Below, one piece after another: positions 4,287 to 59,292 of a stretch of DNA of 64,000 bases. Origin of the DNA: Candidatus Magasanikiibacteriota bacterium. Its GTDB lineage: Bacteria > Patescibacteriota > Patescibacteriia > Magasanikbacterales > GWA2-37-8. The position numbers were made by a program, and so were the translations under genes. The stretch is from the NCBI GenBank assembly GCA_023246655.1, contig JAHFHX010000001.1, positions 28,648 to 92,647 of the forward strand. Direction: 5' to 3'. The notes beneath the pieces were generated by a model that was not told the origin of the DNA, ran no database searches, and saw nothing but the letters and a program-made list of their open reading frames with translations. Numbering within the stretch: the stretch's first letter is position 1; every line of letters starts with the position of its first letter.

Positions 4287-4970
4287 ATGAACGTTAGTAA
4301 ATTTAATTCGTCAACTCAGTTCATAGCCGCGACTGAGGCAGTTATTGTTGCACTCTGTAATGCCACTACCGGAGTGAAACACATTGCCTTAAGCGGCGGC
4401 AAAACTCCGCGGCCAATTTACGAAGCCTTGGCGACAAATGCGGCTATACATTTTGACGATATTGAGTGGTACTTGGTTGATGAACGTTATGTTCCACTGG
4501 ATCACCCGGACTCAAATTATAAAATGATTGTGGAAGCATTTAGCGCGGCCCAGCCAACATTTTCCGAGCATTTTCATTATTTTGATACCAGTTTGCCGCT
4601 TAAGGAATCTGCTCACCGTTACGAAACTGAGCTTAAAAATATTCCGGGGTTACAGTTTGATCTTTGTGTTCTTGGCATCGGTAGCGACGGCCACACCGCT
4701 TCACTTTTTCCGGGGAGCTCCGCACTTTATGAACGCGAACGCCTGGTCGTACCTGCCATTAACGAATTTGTTCCACACCCCCCGGTGCATGAGAGACTAA
4801 CGCTTACGTGGCCAATGATTTTAAAAAGTAAGGAAGTGCTTTTGTTAGCTTCAGGACAGGAAAAACAGGCGATAATTGCGGAATTGCAATTTTCTCACAA
4901 ACAATTTACAGAATTGCCAGCAAAAAAATTGTTGGAGCACCACAATTTTAAAATTTATTTTTTTTCATAA
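4287..4970 (+). CDS. pgl: 6-phosphogluconolactonase (glucosamine-6-P isomerase/6PGL family)
   Basis: LSGGKTPRPIYEAL and GIGSDGHTASLFPG motifs. Its position inside the zwf/gnd cluster favours 6PGL. Confidence 0.8.
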   Translation: MNVSKFNSSTQFIAATEAVIVALCNATTGVKHIALSGGKTPRPIYEALATNAAIHFDDIEWYLVDERYVPLDHPDSNYKMIVEAFSAAQPTFSEHFHYFDTSLPLKESAHRYETELKNIPGLQFDLCVLGIGSDGHTASLFPGSSALYERERLVVPAINEFVPHPPVHERLTLTWPMILKSKEVLLLASGQEKQAIIAELQFSHKQFTELPAKKLLEHHNFKIYFFS

Positions 4971-5133
4971 CAATACTATTGTCGGAAGGCAATTTTTTTA
5001 GTAGTATAAATGTCGTGAGGAAAGGCGGAGAGGAGATAGGCTGCGTGGGCAACATGCAAAACCTATCTTCCTCTCCCAACCTCACATTGCAAGATACTCG
5101 GTAGAAGCCCGAGTTTTTTGTTTGCTCGGTTTT

Positions 5134-6393
5134 CTAATCCGTGAACACCACGCCCATGTTGAGGGCATCCTTGGCGCCGTGCACGAGTCTTCCGCGGCAG
5201 GCTGTCACCACCGCCTCGGCCGGGGAACGCTCGATGAAGTACACCACGAGGCGCGTGAAGCGCTCGTCCGTCGTGAGCTCCCCGTTCGCGTTGTAGTGCC
5301 GGAATTCCCGCTGGCGCCCCTTGAGCTCCCGCTGGAGGATGTAACGCCCACTGGAGCGCTGCGCTGCGTGGAGCGTGTCCTCAAACCTCGAATCATCCGA
5401 GAAGGCCACCCCCTTCGTCCCCGCCGAGATGGTCTCCTTGAGTACGTAGCGCTCCGTCAGGTTCGGGAGGGCGCCGTGCCGGGTCACGAGGTGGGTTTCC
5501 GGGAGATGCTGCCGGATCGTCTGGAGGGACTGCCCGCTCATCTGGGAACGGAGAATCGCTTCGATGTCGGCGTCATTCCCCGGGTTGCTGAGGATGGCGA
5601 GCAGGTTTTTCGAGCCCATGAAGGGCTTCGGCGGCATGAGGAACTTGATCTCGCCCTTCCGGTAGAGGTCGGCGAGGGCGTCGGTGAGGCGCGGGTTCTC
5701 GGTCATCACGGGGAAGTTCACGAGGGTACGCGTCGTCTCGCGCTCGCCGCGGATGATGAGATTCTGTCCGTCGACCGCCGTCTCGATCTCGTCGGCGACG
5801 ATGAGCTCGACCCCAGCGCTTCGGAGCGCCTGCCGGAGGATGTGAAACTCCGGGAGGTAGAAGCGCTCGCGGTGGCCGTAGAGGAAGACGAGCTGATCGA
5901 GGCCGCGCTTTTTGATCGCCGTCCCGAGACTCGTCCTGATCCCCGGGAGCGTGCTCGCGCCCGGGTTCACGGCCTCACGGATGGCGGCAAAGAGGGTCGC
6001 GTAGCCCATGGCCCGCCGGTTCATCGCGTCGATCTCGGCGATCCACAGGTGTCCCGCGGCGTCTTCCACGAAGTCAACCTTCACGATGAGCGGCGTCGTC
6101 GAGGGCTTCAGGAGCTGGAGCTCCCGGTGCGGCCGCGGCACCTCCATCGCGACAGCGTTCTTCAGGAGATCCCAGGTCTTGCCCGGGGCCAGCTCCCGCT
6201 GGTGGGCGATGGTCGCGATCCGCCCGAGGCCAGCGAGGCTCTCGGTGATCGCGGGGCCCAGGTGCTCGAGCTCCGTCCTCGCGCTCATGGGGAGCGGGAA
6301 GACATCCGGGGTGAGCAGGAAACCGTGCGTTTCCCGCCGTCCGCCGTCCCAGATACCCGATTCAATGACGATCTGTTCAATGAGCCTGTACAT
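5134..6393 (-). CDS. GC-rich (approx 62-65% GC) hypothetical enzyme, possibly ATP-grasp / glutathionylspermidine-synthase-like amidoligase; likely horizontally acquired
   Basis: 419-aa ORF with protein-like composition. The opposite-strand ORF 5122..6531 is an R/E/L-rich shadow. AAGGA sits ~6 nt before the ATG at 6393. The segment SKNLLAILSNPGN resembles the SNKxxLxxLW segment of GspS-like ATP-grasp proteins, but family assignment is tentative. A terminator hairpin follows at 5100-5130. Composition differs strongly from the AT-rich flanks. Confidence 0.55.
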   Translation of the reverse strand: MYRLIEQIVIESGIWDGGRRETHGFLLTPDVFPLPMSARTELEHLGPAITESLAGLGRIATIAHQRELAPGKTWDLLKNAVAMEVPRPHRELQLLKPSTTPLIVKVDFVEDAAGHLWIAEIDAMNRRAMGYATLFAAIREAVNPGASTLPGIRTSLGTAIKKRGLDQLVFLYGHRERFYLPEFHILRQALRSAGVELIVADEIETAVDGQNLIIRGERETTRTLVNFPVMTENPRLTDALADLYRKGEIKFLMPPKPFMGSKNLLAILSNPGNDADIEAILRSQMSGQSLQTIRQHLPETHLVTRHGALPNLTERYVLKETISAGTKGVAFSDDSRFEDTLHAAQRSSGRYILQRELKGRQREFRHYNANGELTTDERFTRLVVYFIERSPAEAVVTACRGRLVHGAKDALNMGVVFTD

Positions 6394-7187: not shown

Positions 7188-7337
7188 TCACCGATCGGCG
7201 GCAGGAGGGGGCGCGACCGGACTCTTGCGCCGCCGCGGGGGCGGCAGTTCGAAGGGGTCCACGTGGAATTGTGGATCCTTCTTGATAGGGGGGTTCCCAG
7301 CGGGGGGCTGGGACGGGGGTGCCGGGGTGCGTTCCAT
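7188..7337 (-). CDS. small proline-rich ORF (49 aa) in GC-rich patch
   Basis: ATG 7337..7335 is preceded by AAGGAGA at a 7-nt spacing. Encodes MERTPAPPSQPPAGNPPIKKDPQFHVDPFELPPPRRRKSPVAPPPAADR. The listed 91/100-aa ORFs in other frames lack ribosome-binding sites. Speculative. Confidence 0.3.
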   Translation of the reverse strand: MERTPAPPSQPPAGNPPIKKDPQFHVDPFELPPPRRRKSPVAPPPAADR

Positions 7338-9075: not shown

Positions 9076-9214
9076 ATTTGAGGAAAAAAATATCCCGACT
9101 CAGTCGGGATATTTTTTGTTCCTTTATTGGCAGAAGGATACCAACAAAGGAACGGACGGAACGACGGACTCCGCGCCGAGTTGCGCGGTGTCTGCCGTTC
9201 CGTAGGTGGCGGGG

Positions 9215-9556
9215 CTATGCCCGCAAGCGGTTGCGGCGGCGATACTCCTGCGTGCGCCGCCGAGAATCAATTCGCGCCCAAAGCGACCGGATGGCTTCGA
9301 GCTCCTGCTCTTCGCGCCTGGCGCGCTCAATGCCCTTCCAAATCCTCTCGCGGCGACCGTTGTCGCTCGTCCGCCGGAGCAGGTCGACGAGGTGCATCCG
9401 TCGGCGGTGCACCGCGACGGAGCCGTTGTGCAGGAGATGCTCAATCTCCTGGCGATGTCCAAGACGCAGCGCCGCATGGAGCGGTCTGTGCCCGGGATAG
9501 AGCAACTGGGCGCTACGTATTAGCCGCCCGTAGCGTACGTCATCAAGGACAGGCAT
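9215..9556 (-). CDS. GC-rich small protein (113 aa) with a single ankyrin-like repeat and Arg-rich tail
   Basis: The ATG at 9556 is preceded by AAGGAGAAGG at a 7-nt spacing. The segment YPGHRPLHAALRLGHRQEIEHLLHNGSV fits the ankyrin consensus G-TPLH-AA--GH---V--LL--GA. It lies in a GC-rich patch at 9120-9560. The opposite-strand Arg-rich ORFs are shadows. Confidence 0.4.
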   Translation of the reverse strand: MPVLDDVRYGRLIRSAQLLYPGHRPLHAALRLGHRQEIEHLLHNGSVAVHRRRMHLVDLLRRTSDNGRRERIWKGIERARREEQELEAIRSLWARIDSRRRTQEYRRRNRLRA

Positions 9557-12640: not shown

Positions 12641-13657
12641 TTAGAAATCTTTAACGCTAATTTTTCTCTCCTCCCTCTCCCCATGCTCCAACGCAATCTT
12701 AATCACCCGTTTCCTTTTTAACAATCCCTCAATTTTCTCCGGCCATTCTACAATCGTCACGGTGTCTAACTGGCCCAAGTAGTCTTCTACGCCAATATTG
12801 AGCAATTCCTGCTCGTTTTTTAACCGGTACGTGTCGATATGTACCAACCTGTTAATTGTTAATTGTTTATTATTAATTTGGTACACATTCATTAGCGTAA
12901 ACGTCGGACTGGTAATTTCTTCTTGCACTCCTAACCCTGCCGCAATTCCTTTCACCAGGGTCGTTTTTCCCGCACCCAGTTCGCCGTAGAGACAGACAAC
13001 ATCCCCGGCTCGTAATTCGGTAGCGATTTTGGTTCCAACATTTCTAGTCTCTTGATCGGAGTGAGTGGTAAAAATTCTGCCATTTTTTTTCCGCTCTGAC
13101 CTTAAAACAAGTATAGCGATAGTGCCACTGATGCCAACCATTGCGAGAGGATAGATAGCGACAGCAAAATTCCATTGATTAATGGCAGCAAGGTTAAGCA
13201 AATTACCCAAGAAGAATAATGCCCAGGGCAAACGCCTCTCTCCTGTTGGATTGAGATATACTTTTTTTACCGTGGGGAGAGCTCCTAAACAATCAATGAA
13301 TAGATTCACCAGGAGCGCGGATAACGGTGAGCGAGTCGCTGCCCAGAGAGGGATACTTAGGGCACTCCCGGCAAGGCACCAGCGATCTAATCGTGCCCAG
13401 CCACCTTCACCATACCACAGTGACGCCAGAAACACAGCGCCGATACCAATGACATCTCCAAGCGGAACCCAAATGGTTTCATGTTGCGGTGTGGAGTAAT
13501 AATAACTGGAGAGTAAGAGTAATGATTCTAACATCCAAATTCCCCACCCTGCCCGATTCGGTCGCATTTGTTGGCGTACGGTAGCAAAAAAATAGGTGCT
13601 AAGCGCTATGAGATTCAAAATACCAGCTGCGATACCAATAATTGTTTTTGTTTCCAT
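12641..13657 (-). CDS. tsaE: tRNA threonylcarbamoyladenosine biosynthesis protein TsaE fused to an N-terminal ~190-aa multi-pass membrane domain
   Basis: The C-terminal half has the P-loop LYGELGAGKTTLVKGIAAGLGV, SPTFTLMNVY and HIDTYRL, all typical of TsaE/YjeE. The N-terminal half is hydrophobic with about six predicted TM segments. Confidence 0.75.
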   Translation of the reverse strand: METKTIIGIAAGILNLIALSTYFFATVRQQMRPNRAGWGIWMLESLLLLSSYYYSTPQHETIWVPLGDVIGIGAVFLASLWYGEGGWARLDRWCLAGSALSIPLWAATRSPLSALLVNLFIDCLGALPTVKKVYLNPTGERRLPWALFFLGNLLNLAAINQWNFAVAIYPLAMVGISGTIAILVLRSERKKNGRIFTTHSDQETRNVGTKIATELRAGDVVCLYGELGAGKTTLVKGIAAGLGVQEEITSPTFTLMNVYQINNKQLTINRLVHIDTYRLKNEQELLNIGVEDYLGQLDTVTIVEWPEKIEGLLKRKRVIKIALEHGEREERKISVKDF

Positions 13658-13742
13658 GCAAATTTTTGTAAAAGAATAAGAAATTTGTACCTTTTTAATA
13701 CAGAAAAGTCAAGTTTTAAATTTAATACTAGATAGCCGCAAT

Positions 13743-13836
13743 AAAAACATCCCGACTTAGTCGGGATGTTTTTAATTTTTTTCTCCTCGACTCTCCAGAA
13801 TCGTCCATTGCACAACTCTGGAGATTGGTCGAGGAG
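13743..13836. repeat. direct repeat copy A (terminator hairpin plus 55-bp hairpin unit)
   Basis: AAAAACATCCCGACTTAGTCGGGATGTTTTT followed by TTCTCCTCGACTCTCCAGAATCGTCCATTGCACAACTCTGGAGATTGGTCGAGGA. The 55-bp part is identical to the copy at 14672-14726. Confidence 0.85.
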
Positions 13837-13865
13837 AAGCAGAGGTGCCCGCGGCGCGGTTGCGT

Positions 13866-14147
13866 TCAGAGGATGATGATGTAGAAGGTTGTGGTGCGGG
13901 GCGGCACATCGCAGTCCCTTGCGTCCGCTGCTGTGCGGGACAAGAGCAGGACGACATTTGCTAGTTCCGTCAGCGCCCAGCTTGCGGGGGAGAACACCGT
14001 GTCGCGGCATCCTCCATCATTTTCCCGCCAGCCAATGCCGGGGCCATCTGTGTTTGAGCCACTGTATTCCACTTTGCCGATGACCCTGCGGCCATCGGCG
14101 TGAATTTCGATGATCATGCAGCCGGGCAGAACCTTGCCGAGTTCCAT
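13866..14147 (-). CDS. GC-rich hypothetical small protein (93 aa)
   Basis: The ATG at 14147 is preceded by AAAGGAG at a 9-nt spacing. It lies in a GC-rich patch between the two direct repeats. The C-terminal extent is uncertain because the ORF runs toward the repeat. Confidence 0.4.
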   Translation of the reverse strand: MELGKVLPGCMIIEIHADGRRVIGKVEYSGSNTDGPGIGWRENDGGCRDTVFSPASWALTELANVVLLLSRTAADARDCDVPPRTTTFYIIIL

Positions 14148-14219
14148 TTTTGGAATCTCCTTTCATCTCGCACCATAGCAAAGAGAGAAAGATTTGTAAA
14201 GGGTTAATCAAGTGGACCA

Positions 14220-14621
14220 TTGACAGTCATCAGAATAGCCGGGTATACTACTACCATGAATAAATCAGATTTTAAAAAAGAAGATTTGGACAAAGTGGTA
14301 ACGCTCGGCGTACTTTTGGAATACACCGACGAGTTTTTAATTCCTCGTTTTGCCGATGTTGTGAAAGAAATTGTTCCTTCGATTATTAAAGAATTAGTTC
14401 CACCAATGATTAAAGAAGCTAATGGCCAACTTACCCATGAGTTAAAAGTCTATATTGATGAAAAACTGGCTGATTATAGCTCCGATATTTTTAAACGCCT
14501 TGATAAAAAATACGAGAAAGAAAAACAGTTTAAAGAAAAAGTGGTTCAATTATTTAAGAAACATAAAATCGGTTCACCGGAAGACGTGGCCTTCTTAGAA
14601 GGGTTAGTGCAGGGAAGCTGA
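14220..14621 (+). CDS. hypothetical protein (133 aa, K/E-rich, coiled-coil-like)
   Basis: AT-rich ORF whose terminator belongs to direct repeat copy B. No recognisable domain. Confidence 0.45.
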   Translation: MTVIRIAGYTTTMNKSDFKKEDLDKVVTLGVLLEYTDEFLIPRFADVVKEIVPSIIKELVPPMIKEANGQLTHELKVYIDEKLADYSSDIFKRLDKKYEKEKQFKEKVVQLFKKHKIGSPEDVAFLEGLVQGS

Positions 14622-14640
14622 TGATAATTTCAGAAGAACA

Positions 14641-14726
14641 AAAAACATCCCCATTGAATCGGGATGTTTTTTTCTCCTCGACTCTCCAGAATCGTCCATT
14701 GCACAACTCTGGAGATTGGTCGAGGA
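14641..14726. repeat. direct repeat copy B
   Basis: AAAAACATCCCCATTGAATCGGGATGTTTTTTT plus the same 55-bp unit as copy A. Confidence 0.85.
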
Positions 14727-14764
14727 AGGGGGTGAGGGGGGGGCACGAGACACGTGCTGGCTTG

Positions 14765-15073
14765 CTAAAAAAACTCAGCCGCCTCGAGCCCGAAAATGGC
14801 ATCCACGAGCCAGGCCCAGCCGGTGGGTTCGGGCGGGAGCCAAACAGCCATCATCCGCCCTGTGCGGCTTAGCCGGAATTCCGTCCCGGCGGTGCCTCCC
14901 TGATAGACCTCGATGAGCGCCGCCTGCATCAGCTTGTAGCTGACTTTAGCGGCGCGCCGTTTACCCACGGCTTGCGTCGTGCGGCGGATGAACTCCGCCG
15001 TGTCGAGGCTGTCGTCGGGTGGGATAGTGAGCAGATCCCGCAGGATCGCTCGGTGCGGTTTTCTCAGTTTCAT
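14765..15073 (-). CDS. GC-rich hypothetical small protein (102 aa), weak resemblance to RelE/ParE-type toxins
   Basis: The ATG at 15073 is preceded by GGAGG at a 7-nt spacing. The C-terminal segment EFRLSRTGRMMAVWLPPEPTGWAWLVDAI loosely resembles the RelE/ParE core YRLRVGDYRIIY...LVVL.IGHR. No adjacent antitoxin is evident, so this is a low-confidence call. Confidence 0.35.
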   Translation of the reverse strand: MKLRKPHRAILRDLLTIPPDDSLDTAEFIRRTTQAVGKRRAAKVSYKLMQAALIEVYQGGTAGTEFRLSRTGRMMAVWLPPEPTGWAWLVDAIFGLEAAEFF

Positions 15074-15159
15074 TGCAAGACCTCCAATAGGTAGTCAAGA
15101 GGATTATCGAATTATTGTCAATAGTTGATTTAACTAGTCTTTTTCTGTATACTATTTTT

Positions 15160-15447
15160 ATGACTCTATCAATTGAAGAAGTTCGTAAAATTGCTCAATT
15201 GGCCCGAATCGAGCTTACGCCGGAGGAACTTGCTCGCCACGCCGAAACTATGTCGGCGGTTTTAGATTATATGAACATTTTAAATGAGGTGGATACTACA
15301 GGTGTTGAACCTACGTTTCAGGTTACGGGTCTTGAGAACGTGTATCGAGACGACGAAGTGGTTGAATGTAAACTGCGTGATAGACTCCTCAAGCAGATGC
15401 CAGAGGTGGAGATGGAGGAATTGGTTGTTCCCGGTGTTTTTGATTAG
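15160..15447 (+). CDS. gatC: aspartyl/glutamyl-tRNA(Asn/Gln) amidotransferase subunit C
   Basis: MTLSIEEVRKIAQLARIELTPEELARHAETMSAVLDYMNILNEVDTTGVEPT, ~95 aa, immediately upstream of gatA. Confidence 0.85.
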   Translation: MTLSIEEVRKIAQLARIELTPEELARHAETMSAVLDYMNILNEVDTTGVEPTFQVTGLENVYRDDEVVECKLRDRLLKQMPEVEMEELVVPGVFD

Positions 15448-15451
15448 CACT

Positions 15452-15563
15452 GTCATTGCGAGGAGTGAACTTCGCAGTGAACGACGAAGCAATCCCCCTT
15501 TTTGTGAGAAAGTTGGTGGCGCAATAAGGGGGATTGCCGCGTCGCTTCGCTCCTCGCAATGAC
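15452..15563. repeat. palindromic MITE/REP-like element, copy 1
   Basis: GTCATTGCGAGGAG...CGACGAAGCAATCCCCC / GGGGGATTGCCGCGTCG...CTCCTCGCAATGAC, a long imperfect hairpin between gatC and gatA. Copies occur at 59169-59283 (full) and 21746-21793 (partial). Confidence 0.85.
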
Positions 15564-15570
15564 AAATACT

Positions 15571-17013
15571 ATGAATCTGAACGAACTGACAGTTACCCAA
15601 GCCGCTGAAGGCTTGCGAAAAAAAGAATTTACCTCGGTTAAACTCACCGAGGCTTGTTTGGCACGCATCAACAAGCGTAACAAAGATATTAACGCCTTTA
15701 TTACCGTATGTGATGAGTCGGCAATCAGCGAAGCTAAAAAAGCAGACGAAATGATCGCCCGCGGCGAAGCAAGGCCGCTCACCGGTATTCCATTTGCCGT
15801 CAAAGACGCTATTTGTACTGCCGACGTTCGCTCGACTGGCTCGGCCAAGATTTTAGATAATTACACACCACCCTACGACGCCACGGTCATTAAGAAAATT
15901 CGCGATCAGGGTGGCGTATTAATTGGCAAAAATAATTGCGATGCGTTTGGCCATGGGGCGAGTAATGAAAATAGCATGTACGGGCCGGTGAGGAATCCTC
16001 ACGACCTGACCAAAGTGGCGGGCGGCTCCAGCGGTGGATCGGCTGCGGCAGTAGCAGATAATATGTGCGTCTACGCCATCGCGGAAGATACCGGCGGTTC
16101 AATTCGTTACCCGGCAAGTTTTTGCGGGGTCGTTGGCATGCGTCCTAGCTACGGCCGCAATTCACGCTACGGCATTATGCCGATGGCTTCGTCGCTCGAT
16201 ACCGTAGGCCCTATGACGAAGACCGTTGAAGATATGGCCCTGGTTATGGAATGTATAGCTGGTTCTGATCCGCTCGACGCCACCACAGTACCAGATGCTG
16301 TTCCCGCGTATCATACGGGAATTAAGAATGAAGAATTAAGAATGAAGAATTTGCGAATTGGTGTCCCACGAGAGTACTTTGAAATCGAAGGGATGGATGA
16401 GGAAGTGAGGACGATCACGGATGAAAAGATTGAAAGATTAAAAGATTTGGGGTGTAAAATTGTTGATGTGAGTTTGCCGCATACGAAATACGCGATTGCG
16501 GTCTATTATATTATTGTCCCGAGCGAAGATAGCTCAAATTTAGCGCGGCTTGATGGAATTCGCTATGGCGTGCGCAACACCGAAGGGCGAACGCTGTATG
16601 ATATGTATGCCAAGTCACGTCGCTTTGGGTTTCCAGAAGAAGTAAAACGCCGCATCCTTATTGGTACCTATGCTTTGTCAGCCGGGTATTATGATGCTTA
16701 TTATAAAAAAGCCCAACAAGTGCGCACCCTTATTAAAAAAGATTTTGATGAAGTCTTTCAAAAAGTCGACGTACTCATTACACCAACGTCGCCATTTCCT
16801 CCCTTTGCCATTGGTGACAAAGTGAGCGATCCTTTAGCGATGTATTTAGCCGATGTTATGGTTGGCCCAGCCGCGGTGGCAGGGATTCCGGCAATTTCAG
16901 TTCCCGGAGGGAAAACAAAAACCGGACTTCCAATTGGTGTGCAGATTATTGGAGCAAGGATGAGCGAAGGGACAGTGATGAATATTGGGTACTGGTTGGA
17001 AAAATCCAAATAA
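15571..17013 (+). CDS. gatA: Glu-tRNA(Gln)/Asp-tRNA(Asn) amidotransferase subunit A
   Basis: Amidase signature GGSSGGSAAAVA. The N-terminus MNLNELTVTQAAEGLRKKEF aligns with GatA starts. The listed ORF start at 15559 lies inside the repeat terminus, so 15571 is preferred. Confidence 0.9.
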   Translation: MNLNELTVTQAAEGLRKKEFTSVKLTEACLARINKRNKDINAFITVCDESAISEAKKADEMIARGEARPLTGIPFAVKDAICTADVRSTGSAKILDNYTPPYDATVIKKIRDQGGVLIGKNNCDAFGHGASNENSMYGPVRNPHDLTKVAGGSSGGSAAAVADNMCVYAIAEDTGGSIRYPASFCGVVGMRPSYGRNSRYGIMPMASSLDTVGPMTKTVEDMALVMECIAGSDPLDATTVPDAVPAYHTGIKNEELRMKNLRIGVPREYFEIEGMDEEVRTITDEKIERLKDLGCKIVDVSLPHTKYAIAVYYIIVPSEDSSNLARLDGIRYGVRNTEGRTLYDMYAKSRRFGFPEEVKRRILIGTYALSAGYYDAYYKKAQQVRTLIKKDFDEVFQKVDVLITPTSPFPPFAIGDKVSDPLAMYLADVMVGPAAVAGIPAISVPGGKTKTGLPIGVQIIGARMSEGTVMNIGYWLEKSK

Positions 17014-21745: not shown

Positions 21746-21793
21746 GTCATTGCGAGGAAGACGATTCGCATCGGCTGACTTGGCAATCCCCCT
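21746..21793. repeat. partial (left-arm) copy of the GTCATTGCGAGGA palindromic element
   Basis: GTCATTGCGAGGAAGACGATTCGCATCG...GCAATCCCCC with no right arm. It sits between hrcA and grpE. Confidence 0.7.
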
Positions 21794-22974: not shown

Positions 22975-23577
22975 ATGGCCGAAGGACCACCACGAAGGGA
23001 TTCAAAAAAAGGTATTGCAGCCCTTGTCGCTGGGGGAGTTGCTCTTGGCGCTGCTGGGGTTTGGTTGGCCAATGAAGCCCATCAAGAAGTCGCGCAACCG
23101 TCCAGGCAGGTAGCGCCCAGACAACCACGAGAACGAAGAGCACCAGCGCCAGCAGCAACGCCGTCACCAGATTTTAGTATTTTGCCACCTGGTGAACGAG
23201 CAGTGCGCCGAGGTTCTGAAGACGACCCGGATGCATCGGATCGCCCACTGACCGAAGCGGAAGTTTTGGCGGTACTTGCAGAAGGGGACACGGCAGAACA
23301 GGCGGACAAAATTTTTGAGTATCTAAAGCCTCCCAGGATTCATAATTTAGAAAAGATTCAGTATAGCGAAGAAGGACACGTTTTTGAAGTCTATAGCAAT
23401 ACCCAACCAAGCGGCCCGCCGATTGCTCAATTTAAAATTCATGAAGCTTCCGGCGGATCATTATCATTTTTGTACCGGCCAATTGTGAGTGTTGCAGAGG
23501 TAACGCCTGAGGAAAAAGAATGTCATAATTTGGGAGAATTAGAGAGCGCTCTTGTATCAACTATTGTAGGTAGATAA
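22975..23577 (+). CDS. hypothetical protein with GC-rich, Pro/Ala/Arg-rich N-terminal half and AT-rich C-terminal half
   Basis: 200-aa ORF. The N-terminal segment GIAALVAGGVALGAAGVWL is TM-like. No recognisable domain. Confidence 0.45.
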   Translation: MAEGPPRRDSKKGIAALVAGGVALGAAGVWLANEAHQEVAQPSRQVAPRQPRERRAPAPAATPSPDFSILPPGERAVRRGSEDDPDASDRPLTEAEVLAVLAEGDTAEQADKIFEYLKPPRIHNLEKIQYSEEGHVFEVYSNTQPSGPPIAQFKIHEASGGSLSFLYRPIVSVAEVTPEEKECHNLGELESALVSTIVGR

Positions 23578-32586: not shown

Positions 32587-32613
32587 ATAATCAGTAGAAA
32601 AAAACATCCCGAC

Positions 32614-33024
32614 TTAGTCGGGATGTTTTTGATTATCTAAAATTTTATTCACCTCCGCATCCGCCTCTTTGTTCCCGGCACGCATGGTGTGGCGATACGT
32701 TACTTTTTTAAATTGCGTGGCAGTGTTGTAGACCTGCATAAATAATTTTTGGAGTGTTGGCTCTTTCACTTTGTACTCTCCTCGCATTTGTTTTACGATC
32801 AGTTCGCTATCGAGTACGCAGTGAACTTCGGTCGCACCAAGCTCTTTAGCTTTTTTGAGAGCAGAAATAAGGGCCGAGTACTCAGCAAAGTTATTAGTTT
32901 GGTGCCCCAAATATTCGCCATAGTGCGCCAGCACAACGCCCGCCTCATTTTTGATAACAATGCCAGCGGCAGCTGGCCCCGGGTTGCCACGCGCTCCGCC
33001 ATCGGTGTGGGTGATTAATTTCAT
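32614..33024 (-). CDS. rnhA: ribonuclease HI
   Basis: THTDGGARGNPGPAAAGIVIK and the catalytic E/D/D/H pattern (EYSALISAL, HCVLDSELIVKQ, GNKEADAEVNKIL), ~136 aa. Confidence 0.88.
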   Translation of the reverse strand: MKLITHTDGGARGNPGPAAAGIVIKNEAGVVLAHYGEYLGHQTNNFAEYSALISALKKAKELGATEVHCVLDSELIVKQMRGEYKVKEPTLQKLFMQVYNTATQFKKVTYRHTMRAGNKEADAEVNKILDNQKHPD

Positions 33025-56839: not shown

Positions 56840-56987
56840 CCGGCTTGTTTCTTGTAGTATAGCAATAAAGTTCGTTTTTGCCTAGCCTAGACTATATTGC
56901 TCTTTTGTTAAGCGACTGATATACTTAACACAGATTATGCGGATTACAATCTGTGTAATCCTCACAAAAATGTGTGTAATCTGTGTT

Positions 56988-58457
56988 ATGCGTATTACTT
57001 TTTTCGGTGCCGCCGGTGAGGTAACTGGTTCTTGTAGTCTGCTTGAAGTCGGTCCCTATAGAATTCTAATTGATTGCGGGATGTTTCAGGGCAGCCTTGA
57101 AATGGAAGCTATGAATCATCAGGCATTACCTTTTGATCCTAAGAGTTTGACCCATGTTTTTATTACCCATGCGCATCTTGACCATACCGGCCGGCTGCCG
57201 CTCTTGGTTAAGCAGGGGTATGTTGGCTATTTTTATGCCACTGCCCCCACCATGGAGCTCGCGGAATTGGTCATGCGGGACGCTCATGGCATCATGTTAT
57301 ATGATCATCAACATTTTGGTCGGCCAATTCTATATGGCGAAGAAGATATTGCTGGTGTAATGACCCAGTTTAAGACGGTGGAGTATGGGGAAGAGATGGA
57401 ATTCCCCGCTTGGGCGGGGAAGGCCTCGCAGCCAGGGGTGGGTGAGACCATTGAGTCGCCACTTGCCACTGCCACGCAACGACCTCACCCACCCCTACCC
57501 CGCCCAAGCGGGGAATCGAACGTTGCCGAAAGTGTCACCGTCACCTTCCACGACGTCGGCCACATTTTTGGTTCGGCCTTTATTGAGATCAGAGCCGAAG
57601 GCAAAAAAATTGTTTTCTCCGGAGATGTCGGCAACGTTCATGTGCCAATTTTACGCGATACAGAACCACTCCCGTCTAACCTTGATCTCTTGGTGTGTGA
57701 GTCCACGTACGGCGATCGCCTGCATGAAGTGCAGGCCACGCGTGAAGAAATGATTGAACAAGCGATCCTTAACGCCGTTAAAGGTGGGGGAGTGCTTATG
57801 ATTCCGTCATTTGCTTTGGAACGGACCCAAGAACTTATTTATGAACTTAACAAACTCATTGATCACAAACATAAACTAACCAACGTCCCCATTTATCTGG
57901 ACAGCCCGCTCGCCATTGATGCTACCAAAGTGTATCGCAAGTACCCACAATATTATGACGAAAAAGCCGCCGAATATTTTAAAGAGGGTGATGATATTTT
58001 TACCTTTCCTAATCTCATTACCACTTATTCTCGGGAAGAGTCAATGAAAATTAATCACACGCCGGGCCCCAAAGTTATTATCGCTGGCGCCGGCATGATG
58101 AACGGCGGCCGCATCCTCCATCACGCTCTTCATTATTTATCTGATGCCCGTAACACCATTCTTTTCATCGGCTATCAATCACCCAGCACCCTCGGCCGAC
58201 AAATTATGGAAGGCCACTCTCCGGTCACGGTGCACGGTGAACGCGTAGTCGTTAAATGCCAAATAAAAGTTATGGGCGCGCTCTCGGCGCACGGCGATCA
58301 AAATAAACTGGTGAGTTGGATTAGCGCCGGTCGGCCCAAAAGAGTTATCTTCAATCATGGGGAACCCGGGCCCTCTGCGGCGGTGGCGAAAAGGTTGCAG
58401 CAAGAATGCGGTGTTGAAGCTGCTCCAGCAGTGCTCAATTCAACCGTTATTGTTTGA
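56988..58457 (+). CDS. MBL-fold metallo-hydrolase, RNA-metabolising beta-CASP nuclease (RNase J-like)
   Basis: MRITFFGAAGEVTGSC and HAHLDHTGRLP (HxHxDH), plus beta-CASP motifs. Contains an in-frame 38-codon GC-rich insert at 57402-57515. The start codon is embedded in the conserved upstream motif. Confidence 0.8.
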   Translation: MRITFFGAAGEVTGSCSLLEVGPYRILIDCGMFQGSLEMEAMNHQALPFDPKSLTHVFITHAHLDHTGRLPLLVKQGYVGYFYATAPTMELAELVMRDAHGIMLYDHQHFGRPILYGEEDIAGVMTQFKTVEYGEEMEFPAWAGKASQPGVGETIESPLATATQRPHPPLPRPSGESNVAESVTVTFHDVGHIFGSAFIEIRAEGKKIVFSGDVGNVHVPILRDTEPLPSNLDLLVCESTYGDRLHEVQATREEMIEQAILNAVKGGGVLMIPSFALERTQELIYELNKLIDHKHKLTNVPIYLDSPLAIDATKVYRKYPQYYDEKAAEYFKEGDDIFTFPNLITTYSREESMKINHTPGPKVIIAGAGMMNGGRILHHALHYLSDARNTILFIGYQSPSTLGRQIMEGHSPVTVHGERVVVKCQIKVMGALSAHGDQNKLVSWISAGRPKRVIFNHGEPGPSAAVAKRLQQECGVEAAPAVLNSTVIV

Positions 58458-59166: not shown

Positions 59167-59168
59167 CT

Positions 59169-59283
59169 GTCATTGCGAGGAGGAGCTTGGCAGCGACGAC
59201 GAAGCAATCTCCCCGTTTAAGAAATTTTTAGACAGGGGGATTGCCGCGTCGTCCCGATGCGAATCGGGACTCCTCGCAATGAC
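59169..59283. repeat. palindromic MITE/REP-like element, copy 3 (full length)
   Basis: GTCATTGCGAGGAGGAGC...CGACGAAGCAATCTCCCC ... GGGGGATTGCCGCGTCG...GGACTCCTCGCAATGAC. It sits between mraZ and rsmH. Confidence 0.85.
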
Positions 59284-59292
59284 ACAAAAAAT

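What the first reader, a model, noticed from the sequence alone, without database searches (positions are those of the whole stretch)
13743..15110. ~90-bp direct repeats bracketing a cassette of small genes with alternating GC-rich and AT-rich composition
Two copies of a terminator hairpin plus a 55-bp hairpin unit (TTCTCCTCGACTCTCCAGAATCGTCCATTGCACAACTCTGGAGATTGGTCGAGGA; 13743-13836 and 14641-14726, with the 55-bp part identical) flank an 800-bp segment. Between them are a GC-rich SD-preceded 93-aa ORF (minus) and an AT-rich 133-aa ORF (plus). Directly after copy B lies a second GC-rich SD-preceded 102-aa ORF (minus) with weak RelE/ParE-like features. The arrangement could reflect duplicated target-site or attachment-like sequences, tandem insertion of small GC-rich modules, or a repeat-mediated recombination hotspot. 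No recombinase gene is present.
Basis: seen in the sequence. Interest (0 to 1): 0.65.

Follow-up and report, generated by a model that had tools for sequence, protein, structure and literature searches.

The report
Hairpin repeat flanking foreign gene cassette
Two identical 60-base hairpin sequences sit at the tail ends of two small, foreign-looking genes that were inserted between two housekeeping genes of an uncultured ultra-small (CPR) bacterium. They probably mark where a roughly 0.9-kb gene cassette was spliced in, which hints at how these tiny genomes pick up new genes.

Summary
An exact 60-nt direct repeat (13776-13835 and 14667-14726) is the longest exact repeat in the window and occurs only twice. 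Each copy follows a terminator hairpin. Three independent assemblies reproduce it, and in two of them a SNP distinguishes the copies, so it is not an artefact.

The terminator part belongs to a terminator type found at 8 sites in the window. Only the 55-60-nt hairpin (H) is specific to this locus.

H lies between the stop codon and the terminator of two unrelated minus-strand genes, ORF93 and ORF102. Both look foreign: GC3 is 0.70-0.76 against 0.30-0.52 for host genes, and both have strong Shine-Dalgarno (SD) sites in a genome where 41 of 45 genes have none. The nearest relative has only 96 bp between tsaE and gatC, an empty site.

ORF93 belongs to a small uncharacterised beta-barrel family. 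Members in other genomes are also GC-rich islands, and two are likewise bracketed by long, genome-specific hairpin or terminator repeats. ORF102 is an orphan, and no RelE/ParE signal was found.

Best reading (about 45%): H is the duplicated junction of a cassette insertion and also acts as a 3'-UTR stem-loop. No recombinase gene is visible in the window, and the attC consensus is not met.

The parts
12641..13657 (-). Left flank: tsaE (338 aa). The TsaE domain is fused to a roughly 195-aa N-terminal membrane domain that the relative L004 lacks (its TsaE is 142 aa).
   Evidence: Pfam TsaE E=6.7e-41 on residues 199-333. L004 comparison.
13743..13773 (.). Terminator hairpin T_A. It has an A-tract and a T-tract, so it can act in both directions. 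It terminates ORF93 before the tsaE promoter and is one of 8 hairpins in the window matching TCCCSA-N(3-8)-TCGGGA, typically TCCCGAC-NNN-GTCGGGA.
   Evidence: It is identical (31/31) to the terminator at 32600-32630.
13776..13835 (-). Copy A of the exact 60-nt repeat: T7 plus the 55-nt hairpin H. The outer stem is 9-11 bp, followed by a 3-nt bulge. The inner stem is 8 bp, or 13 bp with G-U pairs on the minus strand. It lies in the 3'UTR of ORF93.
13866..14147 (-). ORF93: a GC-rich gene (GC 0.59, GC3 0.70) preceded by an AGGAG SD. It belongs to an uncharacterised small all-beta protein family.
14172..14249 (.). AT-rich spacer with back-to-back promoters. The minus-strand promoter for ORF93 is TTTACA-17-TG-TATGGT. 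The plus-strand promoter for ORF121 is TTGACA-18-TATACT, an 11/12 match.
14256..14621 (+). ORF121: an AT-rich gene (GC 0.35) with no SD. It is helical and rich in Lys/Glu, with no family hit.
14641..14671 (.). Terminator hairpin T_B. It is shared by the convergent genes ORF121(+) and ORF102(-) and is a diverged member of the same terminator type (27/31 identical to T_A).
14667..14726 (-). Copy B of the exact 60-nt repeat (H), in the 3'UTR of ORF102. In two other assemblies it carries a C>T change at 14693 that turns a G-U pair into A-U.
14765..15073 (-). ORF102: a GC-rich gene (GC 0.63, GC3 0.76) preceded by a GGAGG SD. It has no detectable homologue.
15160..15447 (+). Right flank: gatC, followed by gatA at 15559-17013. 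In relative L004, gatC starts 96 bp from tsaE.

Best explanation
The 1.5 kb between the divergent housekeeping genes tsaE and gatC is an islet of acquired DNA in a CPR (Magasanikbacteria-like) genome. It holds two unrelated foreign genes, ORF102 and ORF93. On the minus strand each is followed by a short GC-rich tail, the same 55-nt stem-loop H, an A-tract and a host-type intrinsic terminator.

I propose that H is the duplicated junction of a cassette insertion (inferred). A segment of about 0.83-0.89 kb carrying ORF93, ORF121 and terminator T_B entered at the H hairpin in the 3'UTR of a resident ORF102 unit. This happened either by recombination between an H on the incoming DNA and the resident H, or by staggered cleavage at the two feet of the hairpin. 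Either route leaves H-insert-H.

Both copies are transcribed as the last structure before the terminator. H therefore very likely also acts as a 3'-end stem-loop that stabilises or insulates the two transcripts (inferred).

Shown: the repeat itself, its position, the foreign character of the genes, the empty site in a relative, and the same bracketing in other members of the ORF93 family.

Inferred: the order of events, the enzyme (none is encoded in the window), and any RNA function.
For: 1. H is identical at 60/60 positions, while the adjoining terminators match at only 27/31 with a 7-nt spacer indel. T_A is identical to a terminator 19 kb away. H was therefore copied or recombined recently and separately from the terminators.
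2. There are only two copies, 891 bp apart. No others occur in the window, in about 400 kb of related loci, or in three public collections.
3. In both copies H sits exactly where GC-rich foreign DNA meets host-type DNA, 30 and 38 nt after the stop codons.
4. The genes look foreign. GC3 is 0.70 and 0.76 against 0.30-0.52 for host genes. Strong SD sites precede all five GC-rich ORFs but only 4 of 45 host ORFs.
5. The syntenic relative L004 has an empty site, with 96 bp between tsaE and gatC.
6. ORF93-family genes in other low-GC genomes are also GC-rich islands. In L089 the gene is bracketed by 101-nt repeats (98% identical, 1004 bp apart) beside a tRNA-Glu. In L093 it is bracketed by a 37-nt terminator repeat (97% identical, 545 bp apart) beside a tRNA-His. 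The repeats differ in sequence between genomes. This is 2-3 such events in about 15 kb. By comparison, about 3 comparable regulatory-module repeats occur in 1.37 Mb of fetched loci.
7. The hairpin is 9-10 kcal/mol more stable as minus-strand RNA because of G-U pairs. The one population SNP converts a G-U pair to A-U.
Against: - I saw no integrase, transposase or HUH (Rep-type) nuclease gene when reading the translations of ORFs of 70 aa or more in the window. This was not an HMM scan.
- There is no strain-level polymorphism. All three assemblies carry the filled arrangement, and no excised or empty variant was found.
- The proposed insert is compositionally mixed: a GC-rich ORF93 next to an AT-rich ORF121 and a host-type terminator. 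It cannot have come directly from a GC-rich donor.
- The bracketing repeats in L089, L093 and the window share no sequence or common fold, so a single dedicated recognition system is not indicated.
- Seven of the ten family loci have no such repeat.
- No third, degenerate copy of H marks the far end of the ORF102 unit.
- A plain duplicated terminator flanks an ordinary-GC small ORF in a Saccharibacteria locus (L015). Duplicated regulatory modules around small genes may therefore be a general habit of CPR genomes and not a sign of a mobile element.
Confidence: 0.45

Rival explanations
1. H is purely a cis-acting RNA element: a very stable 3'UTR stem-loop just upstream of the terminator. It would protect the two foreign mRNAs from 3'-5' decay, or block read-through toward tsaE and ORF121. 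It was copied locally because it is useful and has no role in DNA mobility.
For: - Both copies lie in the transcribed 3'UTR, on the sense strand of the GC-rich genes.
- The minus-strand RNA fold is 9-10 kcal/mol better than the plus-strand fold.
- The SNP at 14693 preserves and strengthens pairing.
- Other units in the window have the same layout of ORF, long hairpin and terminator. Examples are ORF113 with hairpin 9119-9154 and terminator 9085-9117, and the host gene ending at 4970 with hairpin about 5017-5087 and terminator 5096-5114.
- ORF93 homologues elsewhere also end in long hairpins.
Against: - It gives no mechanism for placing an identical 60-nt block after two unrelated genes with no flanking homology.
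- It does not explain why ORF93-family genes in other genomes are bracketed by repeats that include sequence upstream of the gene.
- No transcript data are available.
Confidence: 0.25
2. H is a low-copy REP/MITE-like palindromic element of this genome. It landed twice next to terminators, independently of the neighbouring genes.
For: - The genome carries other intergenic palindromic repeat families, for example the GTCATTGCGAGGAG elements at 15451-15564, 21746 and 59168-59284.
- H is an imperfect palindrome lying between a gene end and a terminator, as REP/BIME and Correia elements often do (own knowledge).
Against: - There are only two copies in 64 kb. They are 891 bp apart, in the same orientation, and both at the 3' end of foreign genes.
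- The other palindromic families are about 70% identical between copies, whereas H is 100% identical.
- No copies were found in public collections or in related loci.
- I saw no RAYT/TnpA-like gene in the window (by eye).
Confidence: 0.15
3. H copies are attC-like sites of an integron-type cassette array without a nearby integrase (a CALIN), acted on in trans by an IntI-like tyrosine recombinase that folds the bottom strand.
For: - H is a 55-60-nt imperfect palindrome with two stems separated by an unpaired spacer, placed at the 3' end of short ORFan genes.
- There are two sites within 1 kb, and they are near-identical to each other, as in chromosomal integrons (comparison from own knowledge of attC and V. 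cholerae repeats).
- Other family loci carry genome-specific repeats.
Against: - The conserved AAC/GTT triplets of the R boxes are replaced by GAC/GTC (read from the sequence).
- The inner stem has no extrahelical bases.
- I saw no intI in 64 kb (by eye).
- ORF93 has its own promoter, and an oppositely oriented gene with its own promoter and terminator lies between the sites.
- The attC covariance model could not be run.
Confidence: 0.07
4. The two H hairpins are the directly oriented subterminal hairpins (left and right ends) of a non-autonomous IS200/IS605-type element (PATE) carrying ORF93 and ORF121.
For: Two near-identical imperfect hairpins in direct orientation bound a roughly 0.95-kb segment. 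Ends of IS200/IS605-family elements look like this (own knowledge).
Against: - I saw no TnpA/TnpB in the window (by eye).
- On this reading the placement of H_B exactly in the 3'UTR of another foreign gene would be coincidence.
- No other copies of the ends were found anywhere.
Confidence: 0.04
5. The repeat is an assembly artefact, such as a collapsed or chimeric join.
For: Short-read unitigs break at the repeat. L003 spans exactly 13806-14723.
Against: An independent 11-kb contig crosses both copies. Its two copies differ by one SNP, and a third assembly shows the same SNP.
Confidence: 0.01

Closest known systems
Chromosomal integron cassette arrays and CALINs (attC sites, e.g. Vibrio cholerae repeats)
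   Same: Short, mostly ORFan genes of atypical composition, each followed at its 3' end by a 55-130-nt imperfect palindrome. The palindrome is nearly identical between neighbouring cassettes and specific to the genome. The sites are in direct orientation and about 0.5-1 kb apart.
   Different: The R-box triplets are GAC/GTC instead of the conserved AAC/GTT. There are no extrahelical bases in the inner stem. I saw no intI in 64 kb. There are only two sites. The segment between them holds two divergent genes with their own promoters and a terminator.
att-flanked integrated elements without their own integrase (cis-mobilizable elements; accretion at one att site)
   Same: An identical core sequence in direct repeat brackets an inserted segment that is absent from a relative. 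Other ORF93-family members lie next to tRNA genes (L088, L089, L093).
   Different: The insert is under 1 kb and encodes no recombinase. The repeat is not part of a tRNA or tmRNA gene in this window. No second att-like copy closes the ORF102 unit.
REP/BIME, Correia and similar intergenic palindromic repeats acting as 3' mRNA stem-loops
   Same: An imperfect palindrome between stop codon and terminator, transcribed with the upstream gene and forming a very stable hairpin.
   Different: Those families are dispersed in tens to hundreds of copies. H has two adjacent, identical copies and none elsewhere in the data available.
Repeat duplication on insertion (CRISPR repeat duplication by Cas1-Cas2; long target-site duplications)
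   Same: A pattern of repeat, new DNA, repeat, in which a whole palindromic unit of tens of bases is duplicated on either side of the inserted DNA. The repeat sequence is that of the recipient genome.
   Different: There are no cas genes, no array and no leader. The inserts are whole genes of 0.5-1 kb. The duplicated length varies (37, 60 and 101 nt) between genomes.

Membership tests
Integron attC site / CALIN | Imperfect palindrome of about 55-140 nt with two paired boxes (R and L) separated by an unpaired spacer | tested here: met
   Outer stem of 9-11 bp, a 3-nt bulge, an inner stem of 8 bp and a 17-nt loop.
Integron attC site / CALIN | Conserved R'' RYYYAAC and R' GTTRRRY (AAC/GTT triplets) | tested here: not met
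   The outer stem reads CCTCGAC ... GTCGAGG, so the triplets are GAC/GTC (sequence).
Integron attC site / CALIN | Extrahelical bases in the L box that mark the recombinogenic strand | tested here: not met
   The inner stem TCTCCAGA/TCTGGAGA pairs perfectly. The only unpaired bases are the 3-nt bulge between the stems.
Integron attC site / CALIN | Integron integrase (intI) nearby (complete integron), or at least 2 attC sites within 4 kb (CALIN) | tested here: inconclusive
   The two sites are 891 bp apart. I saw no tyrosine recombinase when reading all ORF translations of the window. No HMM scan was run, and the rest of the genome is not available.
Integron attC site / CALIN | Score above threshold with the attC covariance model (IntegronFinder) | not testable with these tools
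   The model is not in Rfam. The permissive Rfam scan of 13650-15170 gave only sub-threshold chance matches.
REP/MITE-like dispersed palindromic repeat | Many dispersed copies in the genome | tested here: not met
   Two copies in 64 kb score 94-95 bits and the next best scores 13.5 bits. The remainder of the genome could not be searched.
REP/MITE-like dispersed palindromic repeat | Imperfect palindrome in intergenic or 3'UTR position | tested here: met
Intrinsic (Rho-independent) terminator | GC-rich hairpin directly followed by a U-tract | tested here: not met
   This result is for H. On the minus strand H is followed by A7, and on the plus strand by GAAG or AGGG. The adjacent T_A and T_B hairpins do meet the criterion.
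RelE/ParE toxin (ORF102) | Match to RelE/ParE family profiles or structures | tested here: not met
   No hit at E<=1 in Pfam, NCBIfam, PADLOC or PHROGs. No hit in PDB sequences.
RelE/ParE toxin (ORF102) | Adjacent, co-oriented small antitoxin gene in one operon | tested here: not met
   ORF102 is monocistronic, lying between gatC (divergent) and terminator T_B. The nearest small gene, ORF121, is convergent.
RelE/ParE toxin (ORF102) | Alpha/beta fold with two N-terminal helices and a 3-4-stranded sheet | tested here: inconclusive
   The single-sequence AlphaFold2 model has pLDDT 52.7, which is too low to use. Its predicted order is H-H-H-H-E-E-H.
Site-specific integration (attL/attR) | Identical core in direct repeat flanking DNA that is absent from a relative | tested here: met
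   The core is identical at 60/60 positions. The empty site in L004 is at the level of the whole islet.
Site-specific integration (attL/attR) | Integrase encoded in or next to the element | tested here: not met
   The insert holds only ORF93 and ORF121. I saw no integrase in the window (by eye).
IS200/IS605-type element (PATE) | Subterminal hairpins in direct orientation at both ends | tested here: met
IS200/IS605-type element (PATE) | TnpA (Y1 HUH transposase) or TnpB in the genome, and a conserved target tetra/pentanucleotide | tested here: inconclusive
   I saw no such gene in the window (by eye). The target motif cannot be derived from a single insertion.

The most novel reading that the evidence does not exclude
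CPR (Patescibacteria) genomes may acquire small, GC-rich, SD-bearing ORFan genes such as the ORF93 beta-barrel family through a hairpin- or terminator-targeted insertion process. This process would duplicate the whole target hairpin (37-101 nt, specific to each genome) on both sides of a 0.5-1-kb cassette. It would be catalysed in trans by an enzyme not encoded in the cassette. In effect it would be an integron-like or long-target-duplication gene-capture route that does not use canonical attC sites.
Probability: 0.15. Interest if true: 0.8.

Novelty: new variant of a known kind. Interest (0 to 1): 0.5.

Why it matters
CPR bacteria have tiny genomes, and little is known about how they gain genes. 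This locus shows clearly foreign genes. Their GC content, codon usage and ribosome-binding sites all differ from the host, and they sit between two housekeeping genes that are adjacent in a relative. An identical hairpin lies at each foreign/host junction.

The same repeat-gene-repeat pattern, with genome-specific repeats, recurs around relatives of one of these genes in other uncultured bacteria. If the hairpins are insertion junctions, they point to a cassette-capture route in CPR that needs no cassette-borne recombinase and no canonical attC site. That idea can be tested directly with read-level metagenome data.

If H is only a 3' stem-loop, the locus is an ordinary acquired islet. The ORF93 family would still be a new, confidently folded small protein family with unknown function.

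Tried and rejected
- **Known RNA family:** nothing in Rfam at gathering or permissive thresholds except tRNAs.
- **Other copies of H:** exact-pattern scans of IMG/VR, GTDB species representatives and JGI metagenomes returned 0 hits. Covariance model R1 found no further copy in the window or in 30 related loci.
- **Phage or plasmid origin:** no nucleotide match for 13743-15110 and no protein match for ORF93 or ORF102 in 50,697 phage and 72,556 plasmid records. There was no significant match to viral protein folds.
- **Protein families:** ORF93, ORF121, ORF102, ORF419 and ORF113 have no significant hit in Pfam, PHROGs, PADLOC or NCBIfam.
- **ORF102 structure:** the single-sequence model is unusable.
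- **ORF93 and ORF102 as diverged duplicates:** no residual DNA or protein similarity.
- **A third, degenerate repeat copy at the other cassette edges:** none found.
- **Strain variants with an excised or empty site:** exact-protein look-ups returned only the filled arrangement.
- **Terminator motif as a DNA uptake sequence:** TCCCGAC is only modestly enriched (12 occurrences against about 4 expected) and almost always occurs as a hairpin.
- **Diversity-generating retroelement (DGR) as the cause of the SNP cluster at 23.15-23.29 kb:** no template repeat in the window.
- **Literature:** two full-text searches found nothing describing such hairpin-flanked GC-rich cassettes in CPR.
Full report
**Observation**

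The region reads as the first-stage reader described it. An exact 60-nt direct repeat lies at 13776-13835 and 14667-14726. The 55-nt unit has two matches in the 64-kb window at up to 3 mismatches and none in 100 shuffles. It is the longest exact repeat in the window.

Each copy is preceded by a terminator-like hairpin, T_A at 13743-13773 and T_B at 14641-14671. These two match at only 27 of 31 positions, and the spacers differ by 7 nt.

The unit (H) folds into a two-tier stem-loop: an outer stem of 9-11 bp, a 3-nt bulge, an inner stem and a loop. The fold is clearly better as minus-strand RNA. For the hairpin alone the energies are -38.2 and -34.1 kcal/mol on the minus strand against -28.9 and -24.4 on the plus strand. 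For the hairpin plus terminator the z-scores are -11.0 and -6.9. The difference comes from five extra pairs, including two G-U pairs, that extend the inner stem on that strand.

**Not an assembly artefact**

The same arrangement is present in three other assemblies:
- An independent 11,140-bp ENA contig, 99.94% identical, with 7 mismatches.
- A second ENA contig of 1.7 kb.
- A Logan unitig that spans exactly 13806-14723, from repeat to repeat.

In two of these, copy B carries a C>T change at 14693 that copy A lacks. The two copies are therefore separate loci.

**Which part of the repeat is locus-specific**

The terminator part is not specific to this locus. Hairpins matching TCCCSA-N(3-8)-TCGGGA, typically TCCCGAC-NNN-GTCGGGA, occur at 8 sites in the window: 7470, 9093, 10938, 13750, 14648, 32607, 58581 and 59252. 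About 0.07 would be expected by chance. T_A is identical over 31 nt to the terminator at 32600, which has no H next to it.

Only H is specific to this locus:
- A covariance model of H scores the two copies at 94-95 bits and nothing else above 13.5 bits in the window.
- It finds nothing in about 400 kb of related loci.
- Exact-pattern scans of IMG/VR, GTDB species representatives and JGI metagenomes found nothing.
- Rfam has no match.

H is therefore not a ubiquitous terminator-associated repeat, as far as the accessible data show.

**Host and empty site**

GatA is 66-74% identical to proteins of MAGs that include Candidatus Magasanikbacteria, so the window comes from a CPR/Patescibacteria genome.

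The closest species representative, L004, is syntenic through PLD-like gene, rarA, tsaE (reverse), gatC, gatA and LOG. In L004, tsaE is 142 aa and its start lies 96 bp from gatC.

In the window the corresponding interval is about 2.1 kb. It holds an extra N-terminal membrane domain on TsaE and the 1.5 kb that carries both repeats and the three small genes. The whole islet is therefore lineage-specific.

**The genes**

ORF93 (13866-14147, minus) and ORF102 (14765-15073, minus) are real coding sequences with foreign signatures:
- GC3 is 0.70 and 0.76, against 0.30-0.52 for 60 host ORFs.
- Both start 7-9 nt after AGGAG or GGAGG.
- Only 4 of 45 host ORFs of 140 aa or more have any SD-like motif near a possible start. 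Host genes such as gatC and ORF121 sit directly behind TTGACA/TATACT promoters.

Three further GC-rich, SD-preceded, minus-strand ORFs lie in the same 10 kb: 5134-6393 (GC3 0.89), 7188-7337 and 9215-9556. There are none in the other 49 kb.

ORF121 (14256-14621, plus) is AT-rich (GC 0.35) and has an 11/12 consensus promoter.

ORF102 has no homologue among 5.8 billion clustered proteins other than itself. It has no family or PDB hit. Its single-sequence model is unusable (pLDDT 52.7). Nothing supports a RelE/ParE relationship.

ORF93 belongs to a small uncharacterised family:
- There are 35 representatives at E<=1e-3, mostly 79-139 aa. A few of the matches are repeat units inside large multidomain proteins.
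- W40, R48, W57, P82 and Y89 are invariant.
- The AlphaFold2 model is confident (pLDDT 94.9) and shows a seven-stranded all-beta fold.

**Layout of the two foreign units**

On the minus strand each foreign unit reads: promoter in AT-rich DNA, SD, ORF, a 30- or 38-nt GC-rich tail with a small hairpin, H, an A-tract, a host-type terminator and a T-tract. H therefore lies exactly at the junction between foreign-type and host-type DNA in both units.

The two GC-rich segments share no residual similarity. No third, degenerate copy of H or T lies at the other edges of the units.

**Evidence from other ORF93-family loci**

In low-GC contigs the homologue is again a GC-rich island:
- L084: 62% GC against about 40% in the flanks.
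- L087 and L088: 58% against 43%.
- L089: 61% against 38-45%.
- L091: 55% against 44%.

One all-GC-rich contig, L086 (66% GC), carries a homologue among genes with no family hits. The homologues sit at different places in related genomes. In L084, for example, the gene lies between the hsp20 cluster and dnaK.

In two loci the gene is bracketed as in the window, but by different, genome-specific repeats:
- **L089:** 101-nt repeats, 98% identical and 1004 bp apart. Each consists of a 54-nt hairpin unit plus a terminator, and one abuts the 3' end of a tRNA-Glu gene.
- **L093:** a 37-nt terminator repeated (97% identical, 545 bp apart) on each side of the gene, with a tRNA-His 89 nt downstream.

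I also screened all 1.37 Mb of fetched loci for direct repeats of 30 nt or more spaced 300-1500 bp apart. Apart from L089 and the window, this gave about seven events. Four are tandem repeats inside genes. Three are duplicated regulatory modules: L015 (a terminator on both sides of a 97-aa ORF in a Saccharibacteria MAG), L022, and L094 (a promoter).

Two or three events in about 15 kb around ten family members is far above that background. The L015 case shows, however, that duplicated terminators around small genes are not confined to this family.

**Interpretation**

H matches at 60/60 positions while the adjoining terminators match at only 27/31. This argues against one duplication that included both. 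It points instead to a recent event centred on H.

The simplest scheme that places the same sequence after two unrelated genes is insertion of a segment at H with duplication of H. The segment would be 13836-14666, carrying ORF93, the divergent promoters, ORF121 and T_B. The duplication could arise in two ways:
- A single crossover between an H carried by circular incoming DNA and the resident H in the ORF102 3'UTR.
- Staggered cuts at the feet of the hairpin followed by fill-in.

The recurrence of repeat-gene-repeat with genome-specific repeats in other family loci, and their nearness to tRNA genes, fit an insertion-junction reading.

Independently, H is placed as the last structure before the terminator, is more stable on the sense strand, and carries a structure-preserving SNP. 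These features make a role as a 3' mRNA stem-loop likely. I put the combined reading at about 0.45.

**Arguments against this reading**

- I saw no recombinase or transposase in the translations of all ORFs of 70 aa or more. This was a check by eye and not an HMM scan.
- All available strains carry the filled arrangement.
- The proposed insert mixes foreign-type and host-type composition.
- The repeats in different genomes share no sequence.
- Seven of ten family loci have no bracketing repeats.

**Rival readings**

| Reading | Confidence |
|---|---|
| Purely RNA-level stem-loop copied locally | 0.25 |
| Low-copy REP/MITE-like element | 0.15 |
| Integron-type attC sites (CALIN) | 0.07 |
| IS200/IS605-type ends (PATE) | 0.04 |
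| Assembly artefact | 0.01 |

The attC reading fails a defining test: the R-box triplets are GAC/GTC, not AAC/GTT, and the inner stem has no extrahelical bases. The locus may work like a cassette array, but it should not be filed as an integron.

**Verdict**

The locus is a small islet of horizontally acquired genes in a CPR genome. A locus-specific hairpin is duplicated at the foreign/host junctions.

It is best classed as a new variant of known kinds: att-like or cassette-type junction repeats, and 3' stem-loops. The mechanism is open but testable. The most useful next steps are read-level tests for excision or circle junctions, a whole-genome scan for further H copies and for recombinases, and a family-wide survey of flanking repeats.

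Noticed in passing
window 5134-6393 (-), 7188-7337 (-), 9215-9556 (-): Three more GC-rich, SD-preceded, minus-strand ORFs lie in the same 10 kb: 419 aa (GC3 0.89), a 49-aa proline-rich ORF just upstream of tRNA-Phe (GC3 0.74), and 113 aa (GC3 0.75). The other 49 kb have none. Homologues of the 419-aa protein are hypothetical proteins of Patescibacteria MAGs, and the two examined are only mildly GC-elevated there. None has a family hit.
   Followed up: partly
whole window: Host genes almost never have a Shine-Dalgarno motif (4 of 45 ORFs of 140 aa or more). Many start a few bases after a TTGACA-17-TATACT promoter, which suggests leaderless or SD-independent initiation. The acquired GC-rich genes all carry strong SD sites.
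   Followed up: partly
window 7470, 9093, 10938, 13750, 14648, 32607, 58581, 59252: One terminator hairpin type recurs 8 times in 64 kb, matching TCCCSA-N(3-8)-TCGGGA (typically TCCCGAC-NNN-GTCGGGA) and often flanked by A- and T-tracts. The copies at 13743 and 32600 are identical over 31 nt. A similar hairpin lies just upstream of the ORF93 homologue in L093 (4845-4864).
   Followed up: partly
window 15451-15564, 21746-21793, 59168-59284: A family of long intergenic palindromic elements with GTCATTGCGAGGAG...CTCCTCGCAATGAC ends. Copies are about 70% identical. One lies between gatC and gatA and another between mraZ and rsmH.
   Followed up: no
window 57401-57516, inside ORF 56937-58457 (+): A 116-nt GC-rich palindrome (23-nt arms, 96% complementary, plus an inner 26-nt pair) sits in frame inside a beta-CASP/RNase J-like gene. 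It adds a Pro/Gly-rich loop. This is reminiscent of in-frame palindromic element insertions.
   Followed up: partly
window 23151-23290, inside ORF 22975-23577 (+): Five of the seven differences between the window and an 11-kb contig from another sample cluster in 140 bp of a 200-aa protein with no family. All five are transversions. No template-like repeat occurs in the window, so a diversity-generating retroelement is not indicated here.
   Followed up: partly
window 12641-13657 (-): TsaE is fused to a roughly 195-aa N-terminal multi-pass membrane domain with no Pfam hit. The closest relative (L004) has a plain 142-aa TsaE.
   Followed up: no
L015 4528-4558 and 4875-4905; L094 9330-9369 and 10517-10556; L091 2080-2346 and 2571-2822: Other CPR loci show duplicated regulatory modules around small or acquired genes. 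In L015 an identical terminator lies on both sides of a 97-aa ORF. In L094 an identical promoter lies before two GC-elevated aromatic amino-acid genes. In L091 two tandem ORF93-family paralogues each have a related terminator.
   Followed up: partly
L086 (Logan SRR14234141, 6.3 kb, 66% GC): This contig carries an ORF93 homologue at native GC (GC3 0.95). Eight other genes surround it, and the six that were scanned have no significant Pfam or PHROG hit. It could represent the donor type (an unknown GC-rich organism or mobile element).
   Followed up: partly
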